From a virus (taxonomy: Duplodnaviria > Caudoviricetes), in the IMG/VR virus record IMGVR_UViG_3300033757_000347: 64,000 nt of DNA. One strand, given 5' to 3'. Shown here one piece after another: positions 2,885-54,060 of the stretch. The notes beneath the pieces were generated by a model. The model had not been told where the DNA came from. It did no database searches and saw only the letters and a list, made by a program, of their open reading frames with translations. Within the stretch, counting starts at the first letter, position 1, and every line of letters begins with the position of its first letter. The position numbers were made by a program, and so were the translations under genes.

Positions 2885-4720
2885 ATGACGAAACAGAACA
2901 AAGAAATTAGCGAAAAGTACCAGCTATTGGACGAGATAGAGCACGTGCTCAAACGTCCGGGAATGTACATCGGCTCGACCAAACCGCACACTGCCCAGGA
3001 ATGGATCCTTAAGGACGGAATGTACGAGAAGGAAGAACTGACTTACAACCCAGGTTTCCTAAAACTTTTTGATGAGATCATTTCCAACTCAGTAGACGAG
3101 TACAAGAGGACAGGAAAGGTAACCACAATCAAAGTCATGGTGGTTAGCGACACTATCTCCGTCTTCGACAACGGTGGAATACCCGTCATTCAGCACACCG
3201 ATCACAAGCAGTGGATCCCTGAGATGATATTCTCGAACCTTCGTGCTGGCTCTAACTTCGACGATGACGAGAGCAGAATCGTTGCAGGAACTAACGGTAT
3301 CGGAGCAACTGCTGTAAACATCTTCTCAACTAAGTTCATGGTGAACACGGCGGACGGAAAGAACCAGTTCGTTCAGGTTTACACCGACAACATGTCAAAG
3401 AAGACCCAACCGAAAGTGTCAGGTTCTTCTCGCAGTTTCACAGAGATCACTTACACTCCGGATCTTAAGAGGTTCGGCATGGACAGCATAGACGATGCTC
3501 ACATCAAGATGATGAGAAAGCGAGTCATTGACATCGCTGCTTGCAATCCCGGTTTGCGCTTGGAGTTCAACACCGAAAAATTCAGGTTCAAAACCTTCAA
3601 GGAATACGTTGACACTTACGTGAAGGACTGCGTGTGGGAAAAATCAAAGGACTGGGAAATAGCGATAGGAGTTTCCAAGGACGGGTTTCAATCCGTTTCC
3701 TTCGTGAATTCCATAGCAACCAAGGAGGGGGGAACTCACGAGAACTTCATCCTTTACCAAGCGGTCGAAGCCATCAGAGCAATGATCAAGAAGAAGCACA
3801 AAGTTGAAGTTAAACCTGCAGAGATCAGAGCACACATGTTTCTGTTCATGAACTGCACCATCGTCAACCCAGCTTTCGATTCTCAGACCAAGACCAGGTT
3901 GATTACTGAACCTAAGGATTTTGGAACTACTCACAAAGTTTCGGATAAGTTCAACAAAGCCCTGTTCGAGTCAGAGGTTGTCCAATCGCTTCTTGATTGG
4001 ATCGAACAGAAGAAAGCAGCGGAGGAAAGAACCGAACTCAGAAAGCTCAACAAGACTCTTGGAACGGCAAAGATACTCAAGCTCATAGATGCTAAGGGAC
4101 GTGACCGTAACAAGTGCGTTCTCGGAATATTCGAAGGAAACTCTGCAGTTTCAGCCGTTCGAAAGTTCAGAGACCCTCAAATTTTTGGTGGGTTTCCTCT
4201 TAAGGGAAAGTTCATAAACGTGAGCGAGATGACTAACGCTGAGGTCATCAAGAACGACGAAGCTGTTCAGCTAATGGGAGCGTTAGGAATAAAGTTCGGA
4301 GAGTACCCAAGCAGCTTGAGGTACGGGAAGATCTACTTGTACACCGATGCAGATCCGGACGGCGATCACATTGCTGCTTCGCTGTTGAATTTTTTCGACA
4401 AGTATTGGCCGGATCTCATCAATCACGGAAGAATATTTCGAGTCATGACTCCGCTCGTTGTTGCAAAGAAGGGAAAGGAAACTCTGCTGTTCTACACTGA
4501 TGCTGAATTTTCCGCTTGGGAAAAGAAGCACGCTAAGGGTTGGGACATTGAGTACAAGAAAGGTTTAGCAGCTTTGGAGGACGAGGAATACAAGGAAATC
4601 ATTCACAAACCCGTTCTTCTGAAGCTCAGCAACGATGACAATTACAAGCAGAGCTTGCAGGACTGGTTCGGACCCGACCCATCTGTGAGAAAGGAAAAAT
4701 TGCTGGCAAAGTCAGTATAA
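2885..4720 (+). CDS. Type IIA DNA topoisomerase, ATPase/TOPRIM subunit (T4 gp39+60-like)
   Basis: EHVLKRPGMYIGS, EIISNSVDE, GTNGIG, EGNSA, PLKGK, TDADPDGDHI, YKKGLA. Confidence 0.95.
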   Translation: MTKQNKEISEKYQLLDEIEHVLKRPGMYIGSTKPHTAQEWILKDGMYEKEELTYNPGFLKLFDEIISNSVDEYKRTGKVTTIKVMVVSDTISVFDNGGIPVIQHTDHKQWIPEMIFSNLRAGSNFDDDESRIVAGTNGIGATAVNIFSTKFMVNTADGKNQFVQVYTDNMSKKTQPKVSGSSRSFTEITYTPDLKRFGMDSIDDAHIKMMRKRVIDIAACNPGLRLEFNTEKFRFKTFKEYVDTYVKDCVWEKSKDWEIAIGVSKDGFQSVSFVNSIATKEGGTHENFILYQAVEAIRAMIKKKHKVEVKPAEIRAHMFLFMNCTIVNPAFDSQTKTRLITEPKDFGTTHKVSDKFNKALFESEVVQSLLDWIEQKKAAEERTELRKLNKTLGTAKILKLIDAKGRDRNKCVLGIFEGNSAVSAVRKFRDPQIFGGFPLKGKFINVSEMTNAEVIKNDEAVQLMGALGIKFGEYPSSLRYGKIYLYTDADPDGDHIAASLLNFFDKYWPDLINHGRIFRVMTPLVVAKKGKETLLFYTDAEFSAWEKKHAKGWDIEYKKGLAALEDEEYKEIIHKPVLLKLSNDDNYKQSLQDWFGPDPSVRKEKLLAKSV

Positions 4721-28951: not shown

Positions 28952-29080
28952 ATGAAAAACCTACAGTTACATAAGGCGTATCGCAGTTCCCAACCAATAT
29001 CCCTCGAAGGCTTTATTGGAACATGGAATCCATCATGCGATGACGTAAGAATGGGCTCGGGTTTGCATAGGTTGAAGTGA
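28952..29080 (+). CDS. Putative attenuator leader peptide (42 aa, contains all 20 amino acids)
   Basis: MKNLQLHKAYRSSQPISLEGFIGTWNPSCDDVRMGSGLHRLK*; A-rich start context; GATAAATA at 28917. Confidence 0.8.
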   Translation: MKNLQLHKAYRSSQPISLEGFIGTWNPSCDDVRMGSGLHRLK

Positions 29081-31624: not shown

Positions 31625-32017
31625 ATGAGAATAGTTGAAGATTTTGTAAGAGAAACGCCAAGGGATATTCGTAAGCAAATGTTAAAGCTTGATGAACCTT
31701 GCCACGAAAGAGGATTAAAGTATTCGACTCAGTTAATCGCACTAGTTGCTTATCATTACGATACGACGATGCCAGTAAATGGAAACACTCTAGTCGTTTG
31801 CCACGGTTGTCATAATTCAAAGTGCAGTAATCCAAATCACATGTATTGGGGTACAAAAGCTGACAATCAACTCGATGAATACGAAAACGGAGCAATATCA
31901 ATTTACGAACGAATGCTTAATAAGTACGGCAAAGAAAAAACGTCAAGCATGATGAAAAAGAATTCATCTAAAGGCGGTAAATCGCCAAGAAAAAATAAAG
32001 TGTTAATGGCCTCGTAG
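31625..32017 (+). mobile_element. HNH (His-Me finger) endonuclease
   Basis: VCHGCHNSKCSNPNHMYWGTKADN. Confidence 0.8.
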
Positions 32018-32092
32018 CTCAGTCAGGTTGCGCAAGCTTAGAGCTTCCGCCTTTTAAGCGGAAAGTCGTTGGTTCGAATCCAACCGGGGTCA
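32008..32092 (+). tRNA. tRNA-Lys(TTT) with enlarged D loop
   Basis: Loop CT-TTT-AA; extra hairpin in the D loop. Confidence 0.8.
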
Positions 32093-32137
32093 CAGATTGG
32101 AAAGGTTCGAGTCCCTCCGGGCCTACCAAAGAAATTT

Positions 32138-32214
32138 GGTCTCGTAGTAGAGTTGGTCACAATGTCTGCCTGTCACGCAGAAGGTCGCGGGTTCGAATCC
32201 CGTCGAGACCGCCA
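32138..32214 (+). tRNA. tRNA-Asp(GTC)
   Basis: Cloverleaf; GCCA end. Confidence 0.9.
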
Positions 32215-32220
32215 AAAAAT

Positions 32221-32299
32221 GGTATCGTAGTTCAGCCTGGTCTAGAATGCCTGCCTGTCACGCAGAGGGTCGAGGGTTCAAATCCCTTCGGTACCGCCA
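32221..32299 (+). tRNA. tRNA-Asp(GTC)
   Basis: Cloverleaf; GCCA end. Confidence 0.9.
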
Positions 32300-32304
32300 G
32301 TATT

Positions 32305-32413
32305 GATTTGTAGTGAGAAACAGAGTTTCATCGTTGGTTATCACAGGTTCGAATCCTGTACCAAGCTTCCATAATGCTTAGTATCAAGTCACTCTTTTCG
32401 GCTTTCTCAAATC
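32305..32413 (+). ncRNA. Y-like RNA D
   Basis: GATTTG-TAGTGA-GAAA(C)AGAGT..ACTCT-TTTC-GGCTTTCT-CAAATC enclosing a T arm and a hairpin. Confidence 0.7.
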
Positions 32414-34806: not shown

Positions 34807-34814
34807 CACTAAAT

Positions 34815-34884
34815 GGGCGCGATCCCGAAGGCAGGGCGCTTCACTTGCAATGAAGATGATTGGGTTCAATTCCCACGTGGTCCA
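34815..34884 (+). tRNA. tRNA-Ala(TGC), atypical
   Basis: CTTCA-CTTGCAA-TGAAG; imperfect acceptor stem and D arm. Confidence 0.55.
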
Positions 34885-34888
34885 CTAC

Positions 34889-34974
34889 AAGAAGTAGCAA
34901 GGAACAGAGATACTTCGAAATCAAACGGTGAATTTGAAACTTCCAAAAGATGCTCTTTCCAACATTCTCTTCTT
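34889..34974 (+). ncRNA. Y-like RNA F (module plus one anticodon-like hairpin)
   Basis: GGAA(C)AGAG/CTCTTTCC bulged helix; TCAAA-CGGTGAA-TTTGA. Confidence 0.65.
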
Positions 34975-34980
34975 CGTTTT

Positions 34981-35056
34981 GCTCCCGTAGCTCAGGGGTT
35001 AGAGCAGGAAGCTTATACCTTCAAGGTCGGTGGTTCAATTCCATCCGGGAGTACCA
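34981..35056 (+). tRNA. tRNA-Ile(TAT)
   Basis: Loop CT-TAT-AC; ACCA end. Confidence 0.8.
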
Positions 35057-35059
35057 CAT

Positions 35060-35134
35060 GCTCCGTTCGTCTAGTCGGCCAAGGACGTCAGGTTTTCATC
35101 CTGGAGATCAGGGGTTCGAATCCCCTACGGAGTA
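35060..35134 (+). tRNA. tRNA-Glu(TTC)
   Basis: Loop TT-TTC-AT. Confidence 0.85.
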
Positions 35135-35147
35135 CGCAAAGCCAAAT

Positions 35148-35221
35148 GGTCCTGTAGACGAACAGGTTAAGTCGTTGCCCTTTCAAGGCAAAGGTTGCGG
35201 GTTCGAGCCCCGTCGGGACTA
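35148..35221 (+). tRNA. tRNA-Glu(TTC)
   Basis: Loop CT-TTC-AA. Confidence 0.85.
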
Positions 35222-35230
35222 CTCAAAATT

Positions 35231-35304
35231 GATCGTATAGCTCAGTTGGTTAGAGCGCTTCCGTGACATGGAAGAGGCCGTAGGTTCGAATCCCACTATG
35301 ATCA
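35231..35304 (+). tRNA. tRNA-Val(GAC)
   Basis: Cloverleaf. Confidence 0.85.
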
Positions 35305-35309
35305 CACAA

Positions 35310-35387
35310 GCTCTCTTAACTCAGTTGGTTCAGAGTGTCACTCTTACAAAGTGAAAGTCGTAAGTTCGAATCTTACAGAGAGCACCA
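35310..35387 (+). tRNA. tRNA-Val(TAC)
   Basis: Cloverleaf; ACCA end. Confidence 0.9.
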
Positions 35388-35393
35388 ATAATT

Positions 35394-35469
35394 GGAAGCG
35401 TAGCTCAGTCGGTAGAGCGCAAGCCTGAAGAGCTTGGCGTCGGCGGTTCGATTCCGTCCGTTTCCACCA
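35394..35469 (+). tRNA. tRNA-Phe(GAA)
   Basis: Cloverleaf; ACCA end. Confidence 0.9.
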
Positions 35470-35472
35470 CAT

Positions 35473-35544
35473 TGCGGGGTAGAGCAGAGGTAGCTCGTGA
35501 GACTCATAATCTCAAGGTCGTGGGTTCGACCCCCACTCCCGCTA
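35473..35544 (+). tRNA. tRNA-Met(CAT), initiator-like
   Basis: Unpaired 1:72; fMet-type D arm. Confidence 0.8.
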
Positions 35545-35607
35545 CTAAACGCAGTCGGATGGTAACTCCAAAGAACGGTTCGCCGTGTTGCCGGAGGGCT
35601 GCTCCAT

Positions 35608-35679
35608 GCCGAGGTAGTTCAGAGGCAGAACAGTTGAATCATAATCAACAAGTCGGGATTTCAAAATTCCCCCTCGGTA
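35608..35679 (+). tRNA. tRNA-Met/Ile2(CAT)
   Basis: GTTGA-ATCATAA-TCAAC. Confidence 0.75.
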
Positions 35680-35688
35680 CTAAGATTT

Positions 35689-35779
35689 GGAGAGGTGTCC
35701 GAGCGGCCGAAGGAGCATATCTGGAAAGTATGTGATCGCCAAAAGCGGTTCATGGGTTCGAATCCCATTCTCTCCGCCA
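35689..35779 (+). tRNA. tRNA-Ser(GGA)
   Basis: Long variable arm; GCCA end. Confidence 0.9.
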
Positions 35780-50556: not shown

Positions 50557-50764
50557 TCAACCTTCACGACTTCTTCGTTGTGTGCTGCATCTTAGCTGCT
50601 ATAGATTTTATTCTACCAGTTCCGCCGGTTAACGTTGGCTTTCCGTGGTGGCGCTGGTTACCTGGTTCGGAAATTGTCCTGTGGCTGATGTACTGGAAAA
50701 ACAACAAGTGAAACCTTTTTTGGGAGCCTTGTATAAATAATACAGAACGACGCTTAACAACGAT

Positions 50765-50884
50765 ATGAAATAGGTAACGAGACAACCACGCAAAACTAAA
50801 AGACCTCAGCGTTTCGCAGAGGCGACCCAAACGGGCGCTCGCGTGACGTTCTCGACCAAGTTTAGTAATAGCGCCCGTTTTTTA
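50765..50884 (+). promoter_or_regulatory. M-K-amber leader followed by a terminator-like hairpin
   Basis: ATG AAA TAG at 50765; AAACGGGCGCT (50829-39)/AGCGCCCGTTT (50870-80) plus T-tract. Confidence 0.6.
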
Positions 50885-50887
50885 TAT

Positions 50888-50960
50888 CGCGGGGTGGCAG
50901 CAGAGGTAGCTCGCAAGGCTCATAACCTTGAGGTCGGAGGTTCGAATCCTTCTCCCGCAA
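50888..50960 (+). tRNA. tRNA-fMet(CAT)
   Basis: C1:A72 mismatch; loop CT-CAT-AA. Confidence 0.9.
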
Positions 50961-51012
50961 CACTTGTAGGTATCGCATCGGGCAAGTACTGGAATCTACC
51001 TACTATTTTTTT

Positions 51013-51044
51013 ACCTCATCCTGAAAGGGGTGAGGTTTTTTATT
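51013..51044 (+). terminator. Intrinsic terminator between tRNA-fMet and the RNA ligase gene
   Basis: ACCTCATCC-TGAAA-GGGGTGAGGT plus T-tract. Confidence 0.7.
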
Positions 51045-51058
51045 GGTACAATACTCTC

Positions 51059-52096
51059 ATGGAAGCACCAGTACTACATACACGAGATGAATTTCGCGAG
51101 AAGGTTTTCGAACGCGATAATCACAGTTGCGTGATATGTGGAAAGCCAGCAAAAGACGCACATCACATAATAGAACGGAGACTGTTTTCAAACGGCGGGT
51201 ACTATTTGGAAAATGGAGCTTCTCTGTGCGAGGAACACCACATAGCAGCCGAACAGACTACTCTGTCGTGCGACGAAATCAGAGAAAAAGCAGGTATCAC
51301 TAGAATTGTTATACCGGATCAGCTATACGATGATAATGCGTATGATAAGTGGGGAAACATAATCCTTCCGACTGGAAATCGTTTGAAAGGTGAACTGTTC
51401 TACGATGAATCAGTTCAAAAGATACTCAAGCAGGGAGGAGTCTTGGACCTGTTTCAAAAGTACGTAAAGTACCCAAGAACGATGCACCTTCCGTGGAGCA
51501 ACCTGCTAAAGGACGATAGAATACTAGAAAACGACGAACATTTCATCGGTCGTGAAGTAGTATGCACACTGAAGATGGACGGCGAAAACACGACTATGTA
51601 CAACGATAAGATCCATGCTCGTTCGCTGGACTCAGCTTCTCACGAGACCAGAAACTGGGTAAAAGGTCTTTGGGCTAGAATATCGTGGATGATTGACGAT
51701 AACATGCGACTGTGCGGAGAGAACCTTTACGCGGTACATTCCTTAAAATACGACAGCTTACCATCCTATTTTATGCTATTTTCGGTGTGGGTAGACAATG
51801 TCTGCTTAAGCTGGAAGGAAACGGAAGAGTACGCTGGTATTTTGGGATTGCAAACGGTGCCCGTCATATACCAGGGAATTTACGACAGAGAAAAGATCGA
51901 GAAAGCATTTGCTAAGTACGCAGACACTAACGAAGGTTACGTGATTAGATTGGCTGACCAATTTCTCTATTCTGACTTCAGGCGAAGCATAGCAAAATAC
52001 GTTCGCCCGCAGTTCAGGCAAGCTGTCAACAATTCTCACGGACACTGGATCTCAAAAAAGATAGAAACTAACACGCTGAAAGGTGACAATTCATAG
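51059..52096 (+). CDS. HNH domain fused to an ATP-dependent RNA ligase
   Basis: VFERDNHSCVIC..DAHHI..N..LCEEHH; KYPRTMHLPWS, motif I KMDGEN, GEN, EGYVIR, AKYVR. Confidence 0.85.
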   Translation: MEAPVLHTRDEFREKVFERDNHSCVICGKPAKDAHHIIERRLFSNGGYYLENGASLCEEHHIAAEQTTLSCDEIREKAGITRIVIPDQLYDDNAYDKWGNIILPTGNRLKGELFYDESVQKILKQGGVLDLFQKYVKYPRTMHLPWSNLLKDDRILENDEHFIGREVVCTLKMDGENTTMYNDKIHARSLDSASHETRNWVKGLWARISWMIDDNMRLCGENLYAVHSLKYDSLPSYFMLFSVWVDNVCLSWKETEEYAGILGLQTVPVIYQGIYDREKIEKAFAKYADTNEGYVIRLADQFLYSDFRRSIAKYVRPQFRQAVNNSHGHWISKKIETNTLKGDNS

Positions 52097-52160
52097 AAAA
52101 AGTGGTACGTTAAACTCCACTAAGCAATTTTGCACCACAATAACAAAAAAATCAAACAAG

Positions 52161-52247
52161 ATGAAGTAGAGTATCAGAAGTCCCGTCGGCGTTTTTGAAT
52201 CGCAAGCTGTTAATTCACAAAATTCTCAACAAAAAAATTCAAAAACA
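52161..52247 (+). promoter_or_regulatory. M-K-amber leader with a helix masking the next start region
   Basis: ATG AAG TAG at 52161, in frame with ATG 52248; GTTTTTGAAT (52191-200) complements ATTCAAAAAC (52237-46). Confidence 0.6.
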
Positions 52248-52547
52248 ATGACAACAAAAGACTTAAAATCGGAAATCAAAGCCCTTTCGCAGAAGCAGAG
52301 GGAAACCAAGGAACAGAGAAAGACCGAAAAATTTACCGGAACTCGTTCGTTGACACCATGGGAAGCACAAATGCTCGCACTTCGGCAGAAAGAGCAGCTC
52401 AAGCACATGTTCATCGCGTATGCTCTGCTCAGAAACAAACCGATCGAATCAGCGATCTCTGAAAAGACCGAATGGTCGAAAAAGAAGGTCGACGAAATCA
52501 TGGCGAAGTATGCAGAAGTTGTATGTGTTAGTGAGAACGGATCTTAA
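52248..52547 (+). CDS. Basic hypothetical protein
   Basis: 99 aa; HMFIAYALLR. Confidence 0.7.
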   Translation: MTTKDLKSEIKALSQKQRETKEQRKTEKFTGTRSLTPWEAQMLALRQKEQLKHMFIAYALLRNKPIESAISEKTEWSKKKVDEIMAKYAEVVCVSENGS

Positions 52548-52806
52548 GGGATCCAGCCCGGCCGTCCAGGCCGGCCACGCAGTCGCCCAGTGGATGCTTG
52601 ATAATCCAAACCAAACTTGGAACAATCAAACGTTGATCTACTTAAACGTCGGTGACGCAGACTCGCTGCACAGGTGGGAAATCAAGCTCCAGTACCGAGA
52701 AATGGAATTCACCTAGTTCAAGGAACCGGACCTAAACGACGAAACCACCGCGATCGCTTGCCTAACCGATAACCGAAACATCTTTAGCAGCCTTCCGCTC
52801 CTGTGA
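52510..52806 (+). CDS. PTH2-like peptidyl-tRNA hydrolase with an in-frame amber codon at 52714-52716
   Basis: KLYVLVRTDL..AVQAGHAV...EFT(TAG)FKEPDLNDETTAIAC...LPLL*. Confidence 0.75.
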
Positions 52807-52834: not shown

Positions 52835-53260
52835 ATGGACACTTACATAGATCACAAGAACGTGGTGAAGAGACTCGTGGACGAGTACAAGTTCCACGGA
52901 GGTTTGGTGGTAGCGTACGATTTCGACAACACTGTGTACGATTATCACAAGAAGGGGGACACCTACGACATGGTAGTAGACCTTCTAAAAACCTTGGAAA
53001 AAGTTCCAGGAATAAGCTTAGTGGTTTGGACCGGAACTGCTAACGAACGTCACGATTTTGTAAGAGTCTACCTTCAAGCAAACGACATTCCGTACCACAC
53101 GATAAACGAGAACCCATCTTTCTTCAAATCTTCGAGTAGAAAGATCTTTTACAGCATTCTTCTCGATGATAGAGCTGGTTTAGCTTCAGCGTACAATGCT
53201 CTGGTTGACTTTTTGAACGAAATTGGGGTACAGTATTCTTACGAAAAACTGGGTTCGTAG
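52835..53260 (+). CDS. HAD-family phosphatase
   Basis: AYDFDNT, VWT, INEN, LLDDRA. Confidence 0.8.
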   Translation: MDTYIDHKNVVKRLVDEYKFHGGLVVAYDFDNTVYDYHKKGDTYDMVVDLLKTLEKVPGISLVVWTGTANERHDFVRVYLQANDIPYHTINENPSFFKSSSRKIFYSILLDDRAGLASAYNALVDFLNEIGVQYSYEKLGS

Positions 53261-53322
53261 TTCAGCGGTAGAACACCGGTCTCTAAAACCGTTAGTCGAG
53301 GGTTCGAATCCCTCCGTTCCCA
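53251..53322 (+). tRNA. Amber suppressor tRNA (anticodon CTA) with a Trp-like scaffold
   Basis: CCGGT-CTCTAAA-ACCGT; T arm GAGGG-TTCGAAT-CCCTC; two U:U mismatches in the acceptor stem. Confidence 0.8.
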
Positions 53323-53376
53323 CCGTGGTCATTTTGTACCTTCGCTAAGATAAATAATCAAAAGTGAAGTTACAAA

Positions 53377-54060
53377 ATGGCAAGAAAACCGTACAAATAT
53401 CATTACATTTACAAAACAACCTGTAGTGTTACCGGTCGTTATTATATAGGAATGCACTCAACTTTTAACTTGGAGGATGGGTACATAGGCAGCGGTAAGA
53501 GATTATGGAGATCTATTAATAAACATGGAAGAAATCAGCACAATACTGTGATTCTTGAATTCTTAGAAAATAGACAAGCTTTAAAAAATAGAGAAAGCCA
53601 ACTCATAACCGAAGATCTGTTAAAGGATTCTATGTGCATGAACTTAAAAGTCGGAGGAGAAGGTGGATTCGCCAATAAAGAACATCAAGTAAAATGTTCC
53701 AGTTTAGGGAATCAACGATTTCAAGAAAAATTACGAAATGATCCAGACTTTTACAAAGAGGTATGTAAAAAACGATCTGACAGCAATAAAAAAGCACATA
53801 AACTAGGTATTCATAAAAATTGGAAAACTAATAACGTATCTTGGGTAGGAAAACACCACACAGCTGAAACTAAGAAAAAAATACAAGAAGCGGTCAAAGG
53901 TAAACAAGTAGGTTCTAATAATTCGCAATTTGGAACAAAGTGGATGGTACATTTAGAAAATGGCGCTATTAAAGTTTCAGCTAATGATGTTTCTTCTTAC
54001 CTTTCCTTAGGATACGTTTTCGGTAGAAAATATAGAACACAGGATATAATGTCACACTAA
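53377..54060 (+). mobile_element. GIY-YIG (Seg-like) homing endonuclease
   Basis: YIYKTTCSVTGRYYIG, YIGSG, NLKVGGEGG. Confidence 0.85.

What the first reader, a model, noticed from the sequence alone, without database searches (positions are those of the whole stretch)
50711..52096. M-K-amber leader whose readthrough frame crosses two terminators and tRNA-fMet into the RNA ligase
Seen: promoter-like motif (50711), ATG AAA TAG (50765), terminator-like hairpin (50829-84), tRNA-fMet, second terminator (51013-44), then the ligase ATG (51059). Apart from that TAG, the frame is open for about 95 codons and is in frame with the ligase. Inference: amber suppression or RF1 failure lets ribosomes melt the terminators and switches on initiator tRNA and RNA repair. 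This is an attenuator of opposite logic to the one at 28952. The in-frame continuity could be chance, and the ligase may have its own promoter.
Basis: partly seen in the sequence, partly recalled or inferred. Interest (0 to 1): 0.78.

Follow-up and report, generated by a model that had tools for sequence, protein, structure and literature searches.

The report
Amber-gated leader before initiator tRNA
A large phage that carries its own amber-suppressor tRNA has a conserved Met-Lys-amber start just after a late promoter, and its read-through frame stays open across the hairpins and the initiator tRNA gene ahead of an RNA ligase; it may be a natural switch that needs the suppressor, but this rests on sequence comparison alone.

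Summary
The window is part of a 174-kb phage record with 44 tRNAs, no Shine-Dalgarno use and the standard code.

I first read the 95-codon open frame as chance. Shuffles give 0.8%, but four equally long accidental open frames cross the phage's own tRNA array.

Three results moved me:
- The ATG at 50765 is the first ATG after a TATAAATA late-promoter motif. That is where this phage's genes normally start.
- A second Met-Lys-amber start at 52161 has a clear coding signature after its TAG: 7 synonymous against 1 non-synonymous change across three lineages. A CUA-anticodon tRNA is conserved nearby, so amber read-through is real here.
- A third lineage (L282, 87% identical) keeps ATG AAA TAG inside an invariant 22-nt block. 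Its frame stays open through the last terminator despite a 44-nt deletion, which a 2-nt insertion offsets.

Against the attenuator reading:
- There is no peptide constraint after codon 7.
- The continuity into the ligase is not conserved.
- The first hairpin has an atypical 30-nt loop.
- No transcript data could be obtained.

I put a suppression-gated leader whose translation overrides the terminators at about 0.4. Earlier notes of this scan had flagged both M-K-amber leaders on this same genome.

The parts
50732..50739 (+). TATAAATA late-promoter-like motif
   Evidence: The window has 10 copies, all on the + strand, against 1.8 expected. The genome has 16 on this strand and 1 on the other. 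At 13 of the 16 sites the first ATG downstream opens an ORF of 92 codons or more. The motif is invariant in L002, L279, L280 and L282.
50765..50773 (+). Met-Lys-amber start (ATG AAA TAG)
   Evidence: It is the first ATG after the promoter motif, 25 nt downstream. It lies in a 22-nt block that is invariant in all five aligned sequences, while both flanks vary.
50774..51058 (+). 95-codon read-through frame with no stop
   Evidence: All 10 substitutions against L002 are non-synonymous (my reading of the differences listed). The coding score is 0.02 against a genic mean of 0.41. So any constraint is on openness, not on the peptide.
50804..50822 (+). small hairpin A in the leader
   Evidence: Present in the minimum-energy and centroid folds. 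In L282 both sides of the innermost pair change and the loop widens, while the outer stem is kept.
50829..50884 (+). hairpin B: 11-bp stem, 30-nt loop, U6 run, 3 nt before the tRNA
   Evidence: -21.3 kcal/mol, z -3.5. The stem and U-run are invariant in three lineages, and most substitutions fall in the loop. The loop size is atypical for terminators of this phage.
50888..50961 (+). initiator-type tRNA (CAU)
   Evidence: ARAGORN and Rfam score it at 47.6 bits. It has a C1xA72 mismatch. Exact copies of a 31-base stretch that takes in its anticodon arm occur in many bacterial genomes. L282 has compensatory changes in the acceptor stem.
50966..51012 (+). hairpin C with T7 run
   Evidence: Fold. 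It is deleted in L282 (44 nt, window 50962-51005), so it is dispensable.
51013..51041 (+). terminator D, a canonical intrinsic terminator 17 nt before the ligase ATG
   Evidence: The stem is invariant. The loop changes by G to A in L002 and by +2 nt in L282.
51059..52096 (+). HNH-RNA ligase gene
   Evidence: Pfam RNA_ligase 4.6e-30. phrog_24030 over the full length, with an N-terminal HNH domain. In 24 relatives the protein starts at the same place, with an in-frame stop 1-22 codons upstream.
52161..52202 (+). second Met-Lys-amber leader ORF (core of 14 codons)
   Evidence: There are 7 synonymous and 1 non-synonymous changes among window, L002 and L282. Codons 8 and 14 each use three different synonymous codons. 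It ends after codon 14 in L282 and is frameshifted against the downstream ATG in L279. L005 has a homologue.
52191..52246 (+). 10-bp helix (52191-52200 with 52237-52246) that hides the leader and AUG of the gene at 52248
   Evidence: Present in the minimum-energy and centroid folds of window and L282. Its 5' arm lies inside the second leader ORF.
52510..52806 (+). Pth2-like hydrolase gene with in-frame TAG at 52714-52716
   Evidence: phrog_3668. The TAG is present in L279, L286, L287 and L288. L002 and L282 have a sense codon there. The 30 residues after it are conserved.
53251..53324 (+). amber-suppressor tRNA (anticodon CUA)
   Evidence: Rfam 64.9 bits. Present in L002, L279, L282 and L005, with an invariant anticodon loop and compensatory stem changes.

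Best explanation
The stretch 50732-51058 is a leader whose translation is gated by amber suppression.

Proposed mechanism:
1. A late-type promoter (TATAAATA) gives a transcript whose first AUG starts a Met-Lys-amber ORF.
2. Without the phage's CUA tRNA, ribosomes release after two codons. The leader then folds and RNA polymerase meets hairpin B with its U6 run, and later terminator D.
3. When the suppressor tRNA is active, ribosomes pass the amber codon and find no other stop.
4. They follow the polymerase through hairpin B, the tRNA sequence and terminator D. This weakens termination, so transcription reaches the initiator tRNA and the downstream ligase operon.

Shown here:
- the anatomy;
- conservation of the start, the amber codon and the open frame in three lineages;
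- that amber read-through happens in this phage group.

Inferred:
- that the hairpins terminate;
- that ribosome transit relieves them;
- what the switch is for, most simply as a timer tied to suppressor expression.
For: - The ATG at 50765 is the first ATG after a strand-specific, enriched promoter motif. At 13 of 16 such sites the first ATG is a gene start.
- From base composition, I estimate the chance that such an ATG is followed by AAR TAG at about 1 in 1000.
- The same start recurs at 52161. There the codons after TAG show 7 synonymous and 1 non-synonymous change, and that leader ORF covers the 5' arm of a helix hiding the next gene's AUG.
- The CUA tRNA is conserved, with compensatory changes, in every lineage.
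- An in-frame TAG in the Pth2-like gene is kept in four independent assemblies.
- The frame after the TAG is open for 95 codons. Shuffles give 0.8%.
- In L282, 19 substitutions, a 44-nt deletion and a 2-nt insertion net to -42 nt. The frame stays open until 14 nt past terminator D. With the window's loop sequence, the deletion alone would put a TGA in frame.
- ATG AAA TAG lies in an invariant 22-nt block.
- A ribosome translating up to or through an intrinsic terminator represses it in E. coli (PMC4824070).
- An engineered leader with an inserted TAG works as such a switch (PMC6412442, section 6).
Against: - There are no transcript data.
- There are only three lineages. Under neutrality the open frame would survive with a probability of about 0.2, my estimate from the 0.50 and 0.67.
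- Long accidental open frames cross tRNA genes elsewhere in this window.
- Hairpin B has a 30-nt loop, unlike this phage's usual terminators.
- No conserved antiterminator pairing was found.
- tRNA processing would cut the translated RNA.
- The start context of the ATG is only at the 18th percentile of this phage's gene starts.
- Continuity into the ligase is lost in L282.
Confidence: 0.4

Rival explanations
1. The Met-Lys-amber start is real, but it acts only locally. It could be a short suppression-sensitive leader or a two-codon minigene that loads and releases ribosomes. On this reading the long open frame behind it is an accident of stop-poor, structured RNA. The unit simply makes initiator tRNA and ends at terminator D, and the ligase is reached by ordinary read-through.
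For: - The sister leader at 52161 needs only 9-14 codons in L005 and L282.
- Accidental open frames of 100-123 codons cross the tRNA array four times.
- There is no peptide constraint after codon 7: all 10 changes against L002 are non-synonymous (my reading), and only 4 of the 19 differing sites against L282 lie in codons that keep their amino acid.
- The neutral retention probability is about 0.2, my estimate.
Against: - A specific frame staying open for 80-95 codons in all three lineages has a chance of about 1-3% times 0.2.
- The two indels in L282 offset each other and avoid an in-frame TGA.
- A purely local function gives no reason for the lack of any stop before the terminators.
Confidence: 0.3
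2. Everything is coincidence. This is a plain late-promoter-driven initiator tRNA unit with a structured 5' leader that RNase P removes and tandem terminators. The ATG AAA TAG and the open frame have no function.
For: - ATGAARTAG is about as common on the non-coding strand (4) as on the coding strand (5), and three of the five are clearly accidental.
- The start context is weak.
- The coding score is 0.02.
- The whole cassette is 96% identical to L002, so conservation of any 9-mer there says little.
Against: - The motif is the first ATG after a promoter that otherwise precedes gene starts.
- It is kept in an invariant block in the 87%-identical L282, while both flanks changed.
- The identical device 1.4 kb away is translated past its TAG.
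- My estimate of the joint chance is below 1 in 1000.
Confidence: 0.15
3. The read-through makes a suppression-dependent, N-terminally extended ligase of about 440 residues. The ligase's own AUG is in a poor context just after a stable hairpin.
For: - The frame is in phase with the ligase in the window type and in L002.
- The ligase AUG context is at the 18th percentile.
Against: - L282 has a stop and a 94-codon ORF between the leader frame and the ligase.
- The extension shows no protein-level constraint.
- All 24 other relatives start at the normal N-terminus.
Confidence: 0.05
4. The roughly 140-nt leader (about 50745-50887) is a stable small RNA or a processing or stability element of the tRNA precursor. 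That would explain its 96% conservation without any translation.
For: - The cassette is far more conserved than the flanking genes, 96% against about 75%.
- The fold energy is significant, z -2.8.
- Its anatomy of promoter, about 140 nt, hairpin and U-run is that of a small-RNA gene.
Against: - There is no Rfam match and no second copy in the genome.
- One substitution in L002 breaks the predicted long-range helix.
- It does not explain the amber start or the open frame beyond the hairpin.
- It can coexist with the best explanation.
Confidence: 0.1

Closest known systems
Leader-peptide transcription attenuators (trp, his, pheA; pyrBI coupling type). Named from my own knowledge.
   Same: A short ORF starts right after the operon promoter, a hairpin with a U-run lies before the controlled genes, and ribosome progress is proposed to decide termination.
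   Different: - The sensing codon is a stop codon read by a phage suppressor tRNA, not a run of sense codons.
- No antiterminator alternative helix was found.
- The ORF does not end before the terminator but runs through it, through a tRNA gene and through a second terminator.
Engineered unnatural-amino-acid transcriptional switch: a TAG placed in a leader peptide (review PMC6412442, section 6)
   Same: Transcription of downstream genes requires translation of a leader past an inserted UAG by a CUA tRNA.
   Different: That switch is man-made and relieves Rho-dependent termination at an unmasked rut site. Here the device is natural and the obstacles are hairpins with U-runs.
Stop-codon recoding with suppressor tRNAs in phages, proposed as a timer of late and lysis genes (bioRxiv 10.1101/2021.08.26.457843; PMC9523058)
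   Same: A phage-encoded CUA tRNA is present, and in-frame TAGs block expression until the suppressor is made.
   Different: - This phage is not recoded. TAG ends 24 of 131 long ORFs.
- In the part of the genome I examined, the ambers sit at codon 3 of two leaders and in one small gene, all within 2.6 kb of the tRNA. I did not check the rest of the genome for other amber-interrupted genes.
Translational attenuation by leader ORFs (ermC and cat type; my own knowledge). This is the model for the sister element at 52161.
   Same: The leader ORF overlaps one arm of a helix that hides the start of the next gene.
   Different: The trigger would be amber suppression rather than drug-induced stalling.
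Two-codon minigenes such as lambda bar (minigene mechanism in PMC2490762; the bar sequences are from my own knowledge)
   Same: It is an AUG-sense-stop ORF that should release a dipeptidyl-tRNA. A peptidyl-tRNA-hydrolase-like gene lies in the same operon.
   Different: No toxicity or tRNA sequestration is known here. The stop is always amber, and a cognate suppressor is encoded nearby.

Membership tests
Leader-peptide transcription attenuator | A short ORF that starts close behind the operon promoter | tested here: met
   The ATG lies 25 nt after TATAAATA and is the first ATG. At 13 of 16 such sites the first ATG is a gene start. It is conserved in three lineages.
Leader-peptide transcription attenuator | An intrinsic terminator between the leader start and the controlled genes | tested here: inconclusive
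   Terminator D (51013-51041) is canonical. Hairpin B has a strong stem and U6 but a 30-nt loop. No 3'-end data were available.
Leader-peptide transcription attenuator | Mutually exclusive antiterminator and terminator helices set by ribosome position | tested here: not met
   The folds show no competing helix. The upstream-to-loop pairing proposed in note e1-5824630 is not kept in L282. If the device works, it works by direct ribosome transit.
Leader-peptide transcription attenuator | Regulatory codons whose decoding rate is sensed | not testable with these tools
   There is one conserved amber codon and a conserved cognate CUA tRNA. Whether decoding controls expression needs an experiment.
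Stop-codon-recoded (code 15-like) phage | Many genes with in-frame TAG, and TAG not used as a stop | tested here: not met
   TAG ends 24 of 131 long ORFs. Extensions after TAG are no longer than those after TAA.
Stop-codon-recoded (code 15-like) phage | A phage-encoded suppressor tRNA | tested here: met
   tRNA-CUA at 53251-53324 scores 64.9 bits. It is conserved with compensatory changes.
Bacterial initiator tRNA | CAU anticodon and an unpaired 1:72 position | tested here: met
   The window has C1xA72. L282 has the weak pair U1-A72.
Bacterial initiator tRNA | Three G:C pairs at the base of the anticodon stem | tested here: not met
   Only two are present, because 29:41 is A:U. Exact copies of a 31-base stretch that takes in this arm occur in many bacterial genomes, mostly MAGs and single-cell assemblies of several phyla. 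I did not check that those copies are initiator tRNA genes.
bar-like two-codon minigene | An AUG, one sense codon and a stop | tested here: met
   Sequence at 50765-50773.
bar-like two-codon minigene | Sequesters tRNA as peptidyl-tRNA and is toxic when Pth is limiting | not testable with these tools
   This needs expression in a Pth-limited host.

The most novel reading that the evidence does not exclude
This phage group has evolved natural suppressor-tRNA-sensing riboregulators. Two leaders in one operon begin Met-Lys-amber. One would relieve transcription terminators around an initiator tRNA gene. The other would unmask the start of the next gene. Together they would tie an RNA-repair and translation-rescue operon (ligase, Pth2-like hydrolase) to the activity of the phage's own CUA tRNA.
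Probability: 0.35. Interest if true: 0.8.

Novelty: new variant of a known kind. Interest (0 to 1): 0.6.

Why it matters
Phage suppressor tRNAs have been proposed as timers that act through stop codons scattered inside late genes. Here the amber codon sits at codon 3 of untranslated-looking leaders in a phage that otherwise keeps the standard code.

If this holds, it would be:
- a compact natural form of the TAG-in-leader switches that synthetic biologists built by design;
- an intermediate stage between acquiring a suppressor and recoding a genome;
- an explanation of why standard-code phages carry suppressor tRNAs.

It is directly testable with simple reporters. There is also a practical point. 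Public gene calls extend the ligase by 55 residues across the tRNA gene (the 400-residue cluster P0001), which is an annotation artefact.

Tried and rejected
- Global TAG reassignment. Rejected.
- Hairpin B as a copy of the Y-RNA-like module noted elsewhere in the window. It shares short words, but these are not kept in L002 and substitutions cluster in the loop. Rejected.
- Alternative pairing of the leader's 5' end with the hairpin B loop. Not conserved in L282.
- A long-range helix pairing the AUG with the U-run. One L002 change breaks it. Unsupported.
- Known RNA families. Rfam finds only tRNAs.
- Second copies of the leader in the genome. None.
- Further copies of the cassette in IMG/VR and JGI metagenomes, using four DNA patterns. 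Only the L002 contig turned up, plus a chance match inside a coding region, L148.
- A wider pattern for the second leader. It gave only chance matches in G+C-rich genes besides L005.
- Bacteroidota-type early promoter before the ligase. None.
- Shine-Dalgarno and start-context scoring. The phage avoids Shine-Dalgarno motifs. The score of the ATG at 50765 is uninformative: 18th percentile of gene starts and 70th of all ATGs.
- Host identification from the tRNA. A 31-base stretch that takes in the anticodon arm occurs in many phyla, so it is not diagnostic.
- Sequencing runs for transcript ends.
- Ligase relatives at 76-79% identity (L283-L285) and 24 IMG/VR relatives. They lack the cassette, so they cannot test it.

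Full report
**Setting**

The window is the minus strand of 102941-166940 of a 174-kb IMG/VR virus record estimated 67% complete.
- It carries 44 tRNA genes on one strand.
- Its genes avoid Shine-Dalgarno motifs: 7 of 116 starts have one, against 18% of random sites. Their leaders are A-rich.
- TAG is an ordinary stop. It ends 24 of 131 long ORFs, and extensions after TAG are not unusual.
- The octamer TATAAATA occurs 10 times in the window, all on the coding strand, against 1.8 expected. The genome has 16 on this strand and 1 on the other.
- At 13 of those 16 sites the first ATG downstream opens an ORF of at least 92 codons, usually 11-29 nt after the motif.
- From my own knowledge, the motif equals the T4 late-promoter consensus. 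I did not test whether this phage has a gp55-type factor.

**The observation**

- TATAAATA: 50732-50739.
- ATG AAA TAG: 50765-50773.
- Small hairpin: 50804-50822.
- Hairpin B: 50829-50880 with a U6 run. It has an 11-bp stem and a 30-nt loop (-21.3 kcal/mol, z -3.5).
- Initiator-type tRNA: 50888-50961, with C1xA72.
- Third hairpin with a T7 run: 50966-51012.
- Canonical terminator D: 51013-51041.
- Ligase ATG: 51059.
- After the TAG there is no stop for 95 codons, and the frame is that of the ligase.

The ligase is a full-length member of phrog_24030, with an N-terminal HNH domain.

**First pass: is the open frame chance?**

- Shuffles leave this frame open in 0.8% of trials.
- Four accidental stop-free stretches of 100-123 codons cross the tRNA array of the same window. 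Nine of the 43 other tRNAs lie in such frames.
- The frame has no coding character. Its score is 0.02, against 0.41 +/- 0.17 for genes and -0.04 to -0.11 for the accidental frames.
- In 24 ligase relatives without the tRNA, an in-frame stop lies 1-22 codons before the same N-terminus.
- Against the one relative then known (L002), the cassette 50683-51058 is 96% identical while the flanking genes are about 75% identical.
- All ten substitutions in the frame are non-synonymous (my reading of the differences listed).

At that point I held the frame to be chance.

**What changed my reading**

Earlier notes of this scan pointed to a second ATG AAG TAG at 52161. It is in phase with ATG 52248. I checked it as follows.
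- It is conserved in L002.
- All six substitutions in the 26 codons after the TAG are third-position and synonymous.
- With a third lineage (L282), the first 14 codons show 7 synonymous changes and 1 non-synonymous change. Codons 8 and 14 each use three different synonymous codons.
- The ORF ends after codon 14 in L282. It is out of phase with the downstream ATG in L279. L005 has a shorter homologue next to that phage's Pth2-like gene and CUA tRNA.

It is therefore a translated leader peptide with an amber codon at position 3, not an N-terminal extension. Its codons cover the 5' arm of a 10-bp helix that hides the leader and AUG of the next gene.

Two further facts show that amber read-through is real in this group:
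- The cognate CUA tRNA (53251-53324) is present in every lineage, with an invariant anticodon loop and compensatory stem changes.
- The Pth2-like gene carries an in-frame TAG in four independent assemblies. L002 and L282 have Ile or Thr at that position, and the C-terminus after it is conserved.

**New relatives of the cassette**

DNA-pattern scans of IMG/VR and JGI metagenomes found only the L002 contig. The protein collection gave more.
- Near-identical copies: L279, L280, L281, L287, L288.
- A third lineage: L282, 87% identical.

L282 keeps the following:
- the promoter motif;
- ATG AAA TAG inside a 22-nt block that is invariant in all five sequences, while the spacer before it and the 17 nt after it have changed;
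- the stem and U-run of hairpin B;
- the tRNA;
- terminator D.

L282 lacks the third hairpin (a 44-nt deletion) and has 2 extra nt in the loop of terminator D, a net change of -42 nt. Its frame after the TAG stays open for 80 codons and stops 14 nt beyond the terminator's U-run. With the window's loop sequence, the deletion alone would place a TGA in frame. A 94-codon ORF then precedes the ligase.

Indels outside the frame are not multiples of three: 2 nt before the ATG in L282 and 1 nt before the promoter in L280.

Random substitutions in the observed numbers would leave the frame open with probability 0.50 (L282, up to the tRNA end) and 0.67 (L002). With the indel segment, joint retention under neutrality is about 0.2 (my estimate).

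**Weighing**

- The chance that the first ATG behind a late promoter is followed by AAR TAG is about 1 in 1000 (my estimate from base composition).
- The motif was defined independently by the translated sister leader.
- It is conserved in a locally invariant block.

I therefore take the Met-Lys-amber start at 50765 as real, at about 0.8.

Given a real amber-gated start, an accidental 80-95-codon open frame kept in three lineages has a probability of a few in a thousand. A design in which ribosomes must cross the hairpins predicts it. Set against a low prior for such a design, this gives about 0.4 for the read-through antitermination model.

The physical principle is established. In E. coli a ribosome translating up to an intrinsic terminator almost abolishes termination (PMC4824070). 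An engineered leader with a TAG behaves as such a switch (PMC6412442).

**What remains against it**

- No transcript evidence could be obtained.
- Hairpin B is not a typical terminator of this phage.
- No antiterminator helix exists.
- The start context is weak.
- tRNA processing would compete with translation.
- The phase with the ligase is not conserved.

**Comparison with known systems**

- It works like a leader-peptide attenuator, but it fails that family's test for alternative helices.
- It shares the suppressor-as-timer logic proposed for recoded phages (bioRxiv 10.1101/2021.08.26.457843). However, this phage is not recoded.
- In the absence of suppression, the two-codon ORF resembles minigenes that shed dipeptidyl-tRNA (PMC2490762). 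That may connect to the Pth2-like gene in the same operon. This last link is speculation.

**Verdict**

The most likely mechanism is a suppression-gated leader, which would be a new variant of known kinds. Evidence for the sister element at 52161 is stronger than for the element I was asked about.

Noticed in passing
window 52161-52262: A second Met-Lys-amber leader peptide with a strong coding signature after its TAG. It overlaps a 10-bp helix that hides the AUG at 52248. It looks like a suppression-dependent translational unmasking switch and deserves its own follow-up.
   Followed up: yes
window 52510-52806: The Pth2-like hydrolase gene has an in-frame TAG (52714) in the window and in L279, L286, L287 and L288. 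L002 and L282 have a sense codon there. The C-terminus after the TAG is conserved.
   Followed up: yes
window 53377-54060: A homing-endonuclease-like ORF (phrog_314, NUMOD3) lies right after the CUA tRNA. It is absent from L002 and L149, and L288 has a different gene there. L005 has an unscanned 267-residue ORF (3195-3998) that overlaps its own CUA tRNA. This looks like a variable insertion spot.
   Followed up: partly
window 50683: The left edge of the conserved cassette is a recombination junction inside the last 9 codons of a small ORF. Upstream lie unrelated ORFs in L002, a TROVE (Ro60-like) gene plus tRNA-Pro in L279 and L280, and an adenylosuccinate-synthetase-like gene in the window, L282, L287 and L288.
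   Followed up: partly
window 50894-52096: Public gene calls extend the ligase to 397-400 residues by starting at a GTG inside the tRNA gene (cluster P0001, P0122, P0123). This is an annotation artefact of the open frame.
   Followed up: yes
window 35473-35545: The tRNA array has another initiator-like CAU tRNA with a U1xU72 mismatch, so the tRNA at 50888 is a second initiator copy that is closer to the bacterial consensus.
   Followed up: partly
window 31999-32310, 34813-35237, 35364-35732: Stop-free frames of 100-123 codons run across groups of tRNA genes. They are a useful internal control for chance ORFs in tRNA arrays.
   Followed up: yes
window 52097-52160: The 64 nt before the second leader have one substitution against L002 but are replaced by a different A-rich sequence in L282 and L286. 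Homology resumes 5 nt before the ATG.
   Followed up: no
L282:2707-2991: A 94-codon ORF of unknown function lies between terminator D and the ligase in this lineage only. It is in the same phase as the leader and the ligase.
   Followed up: no
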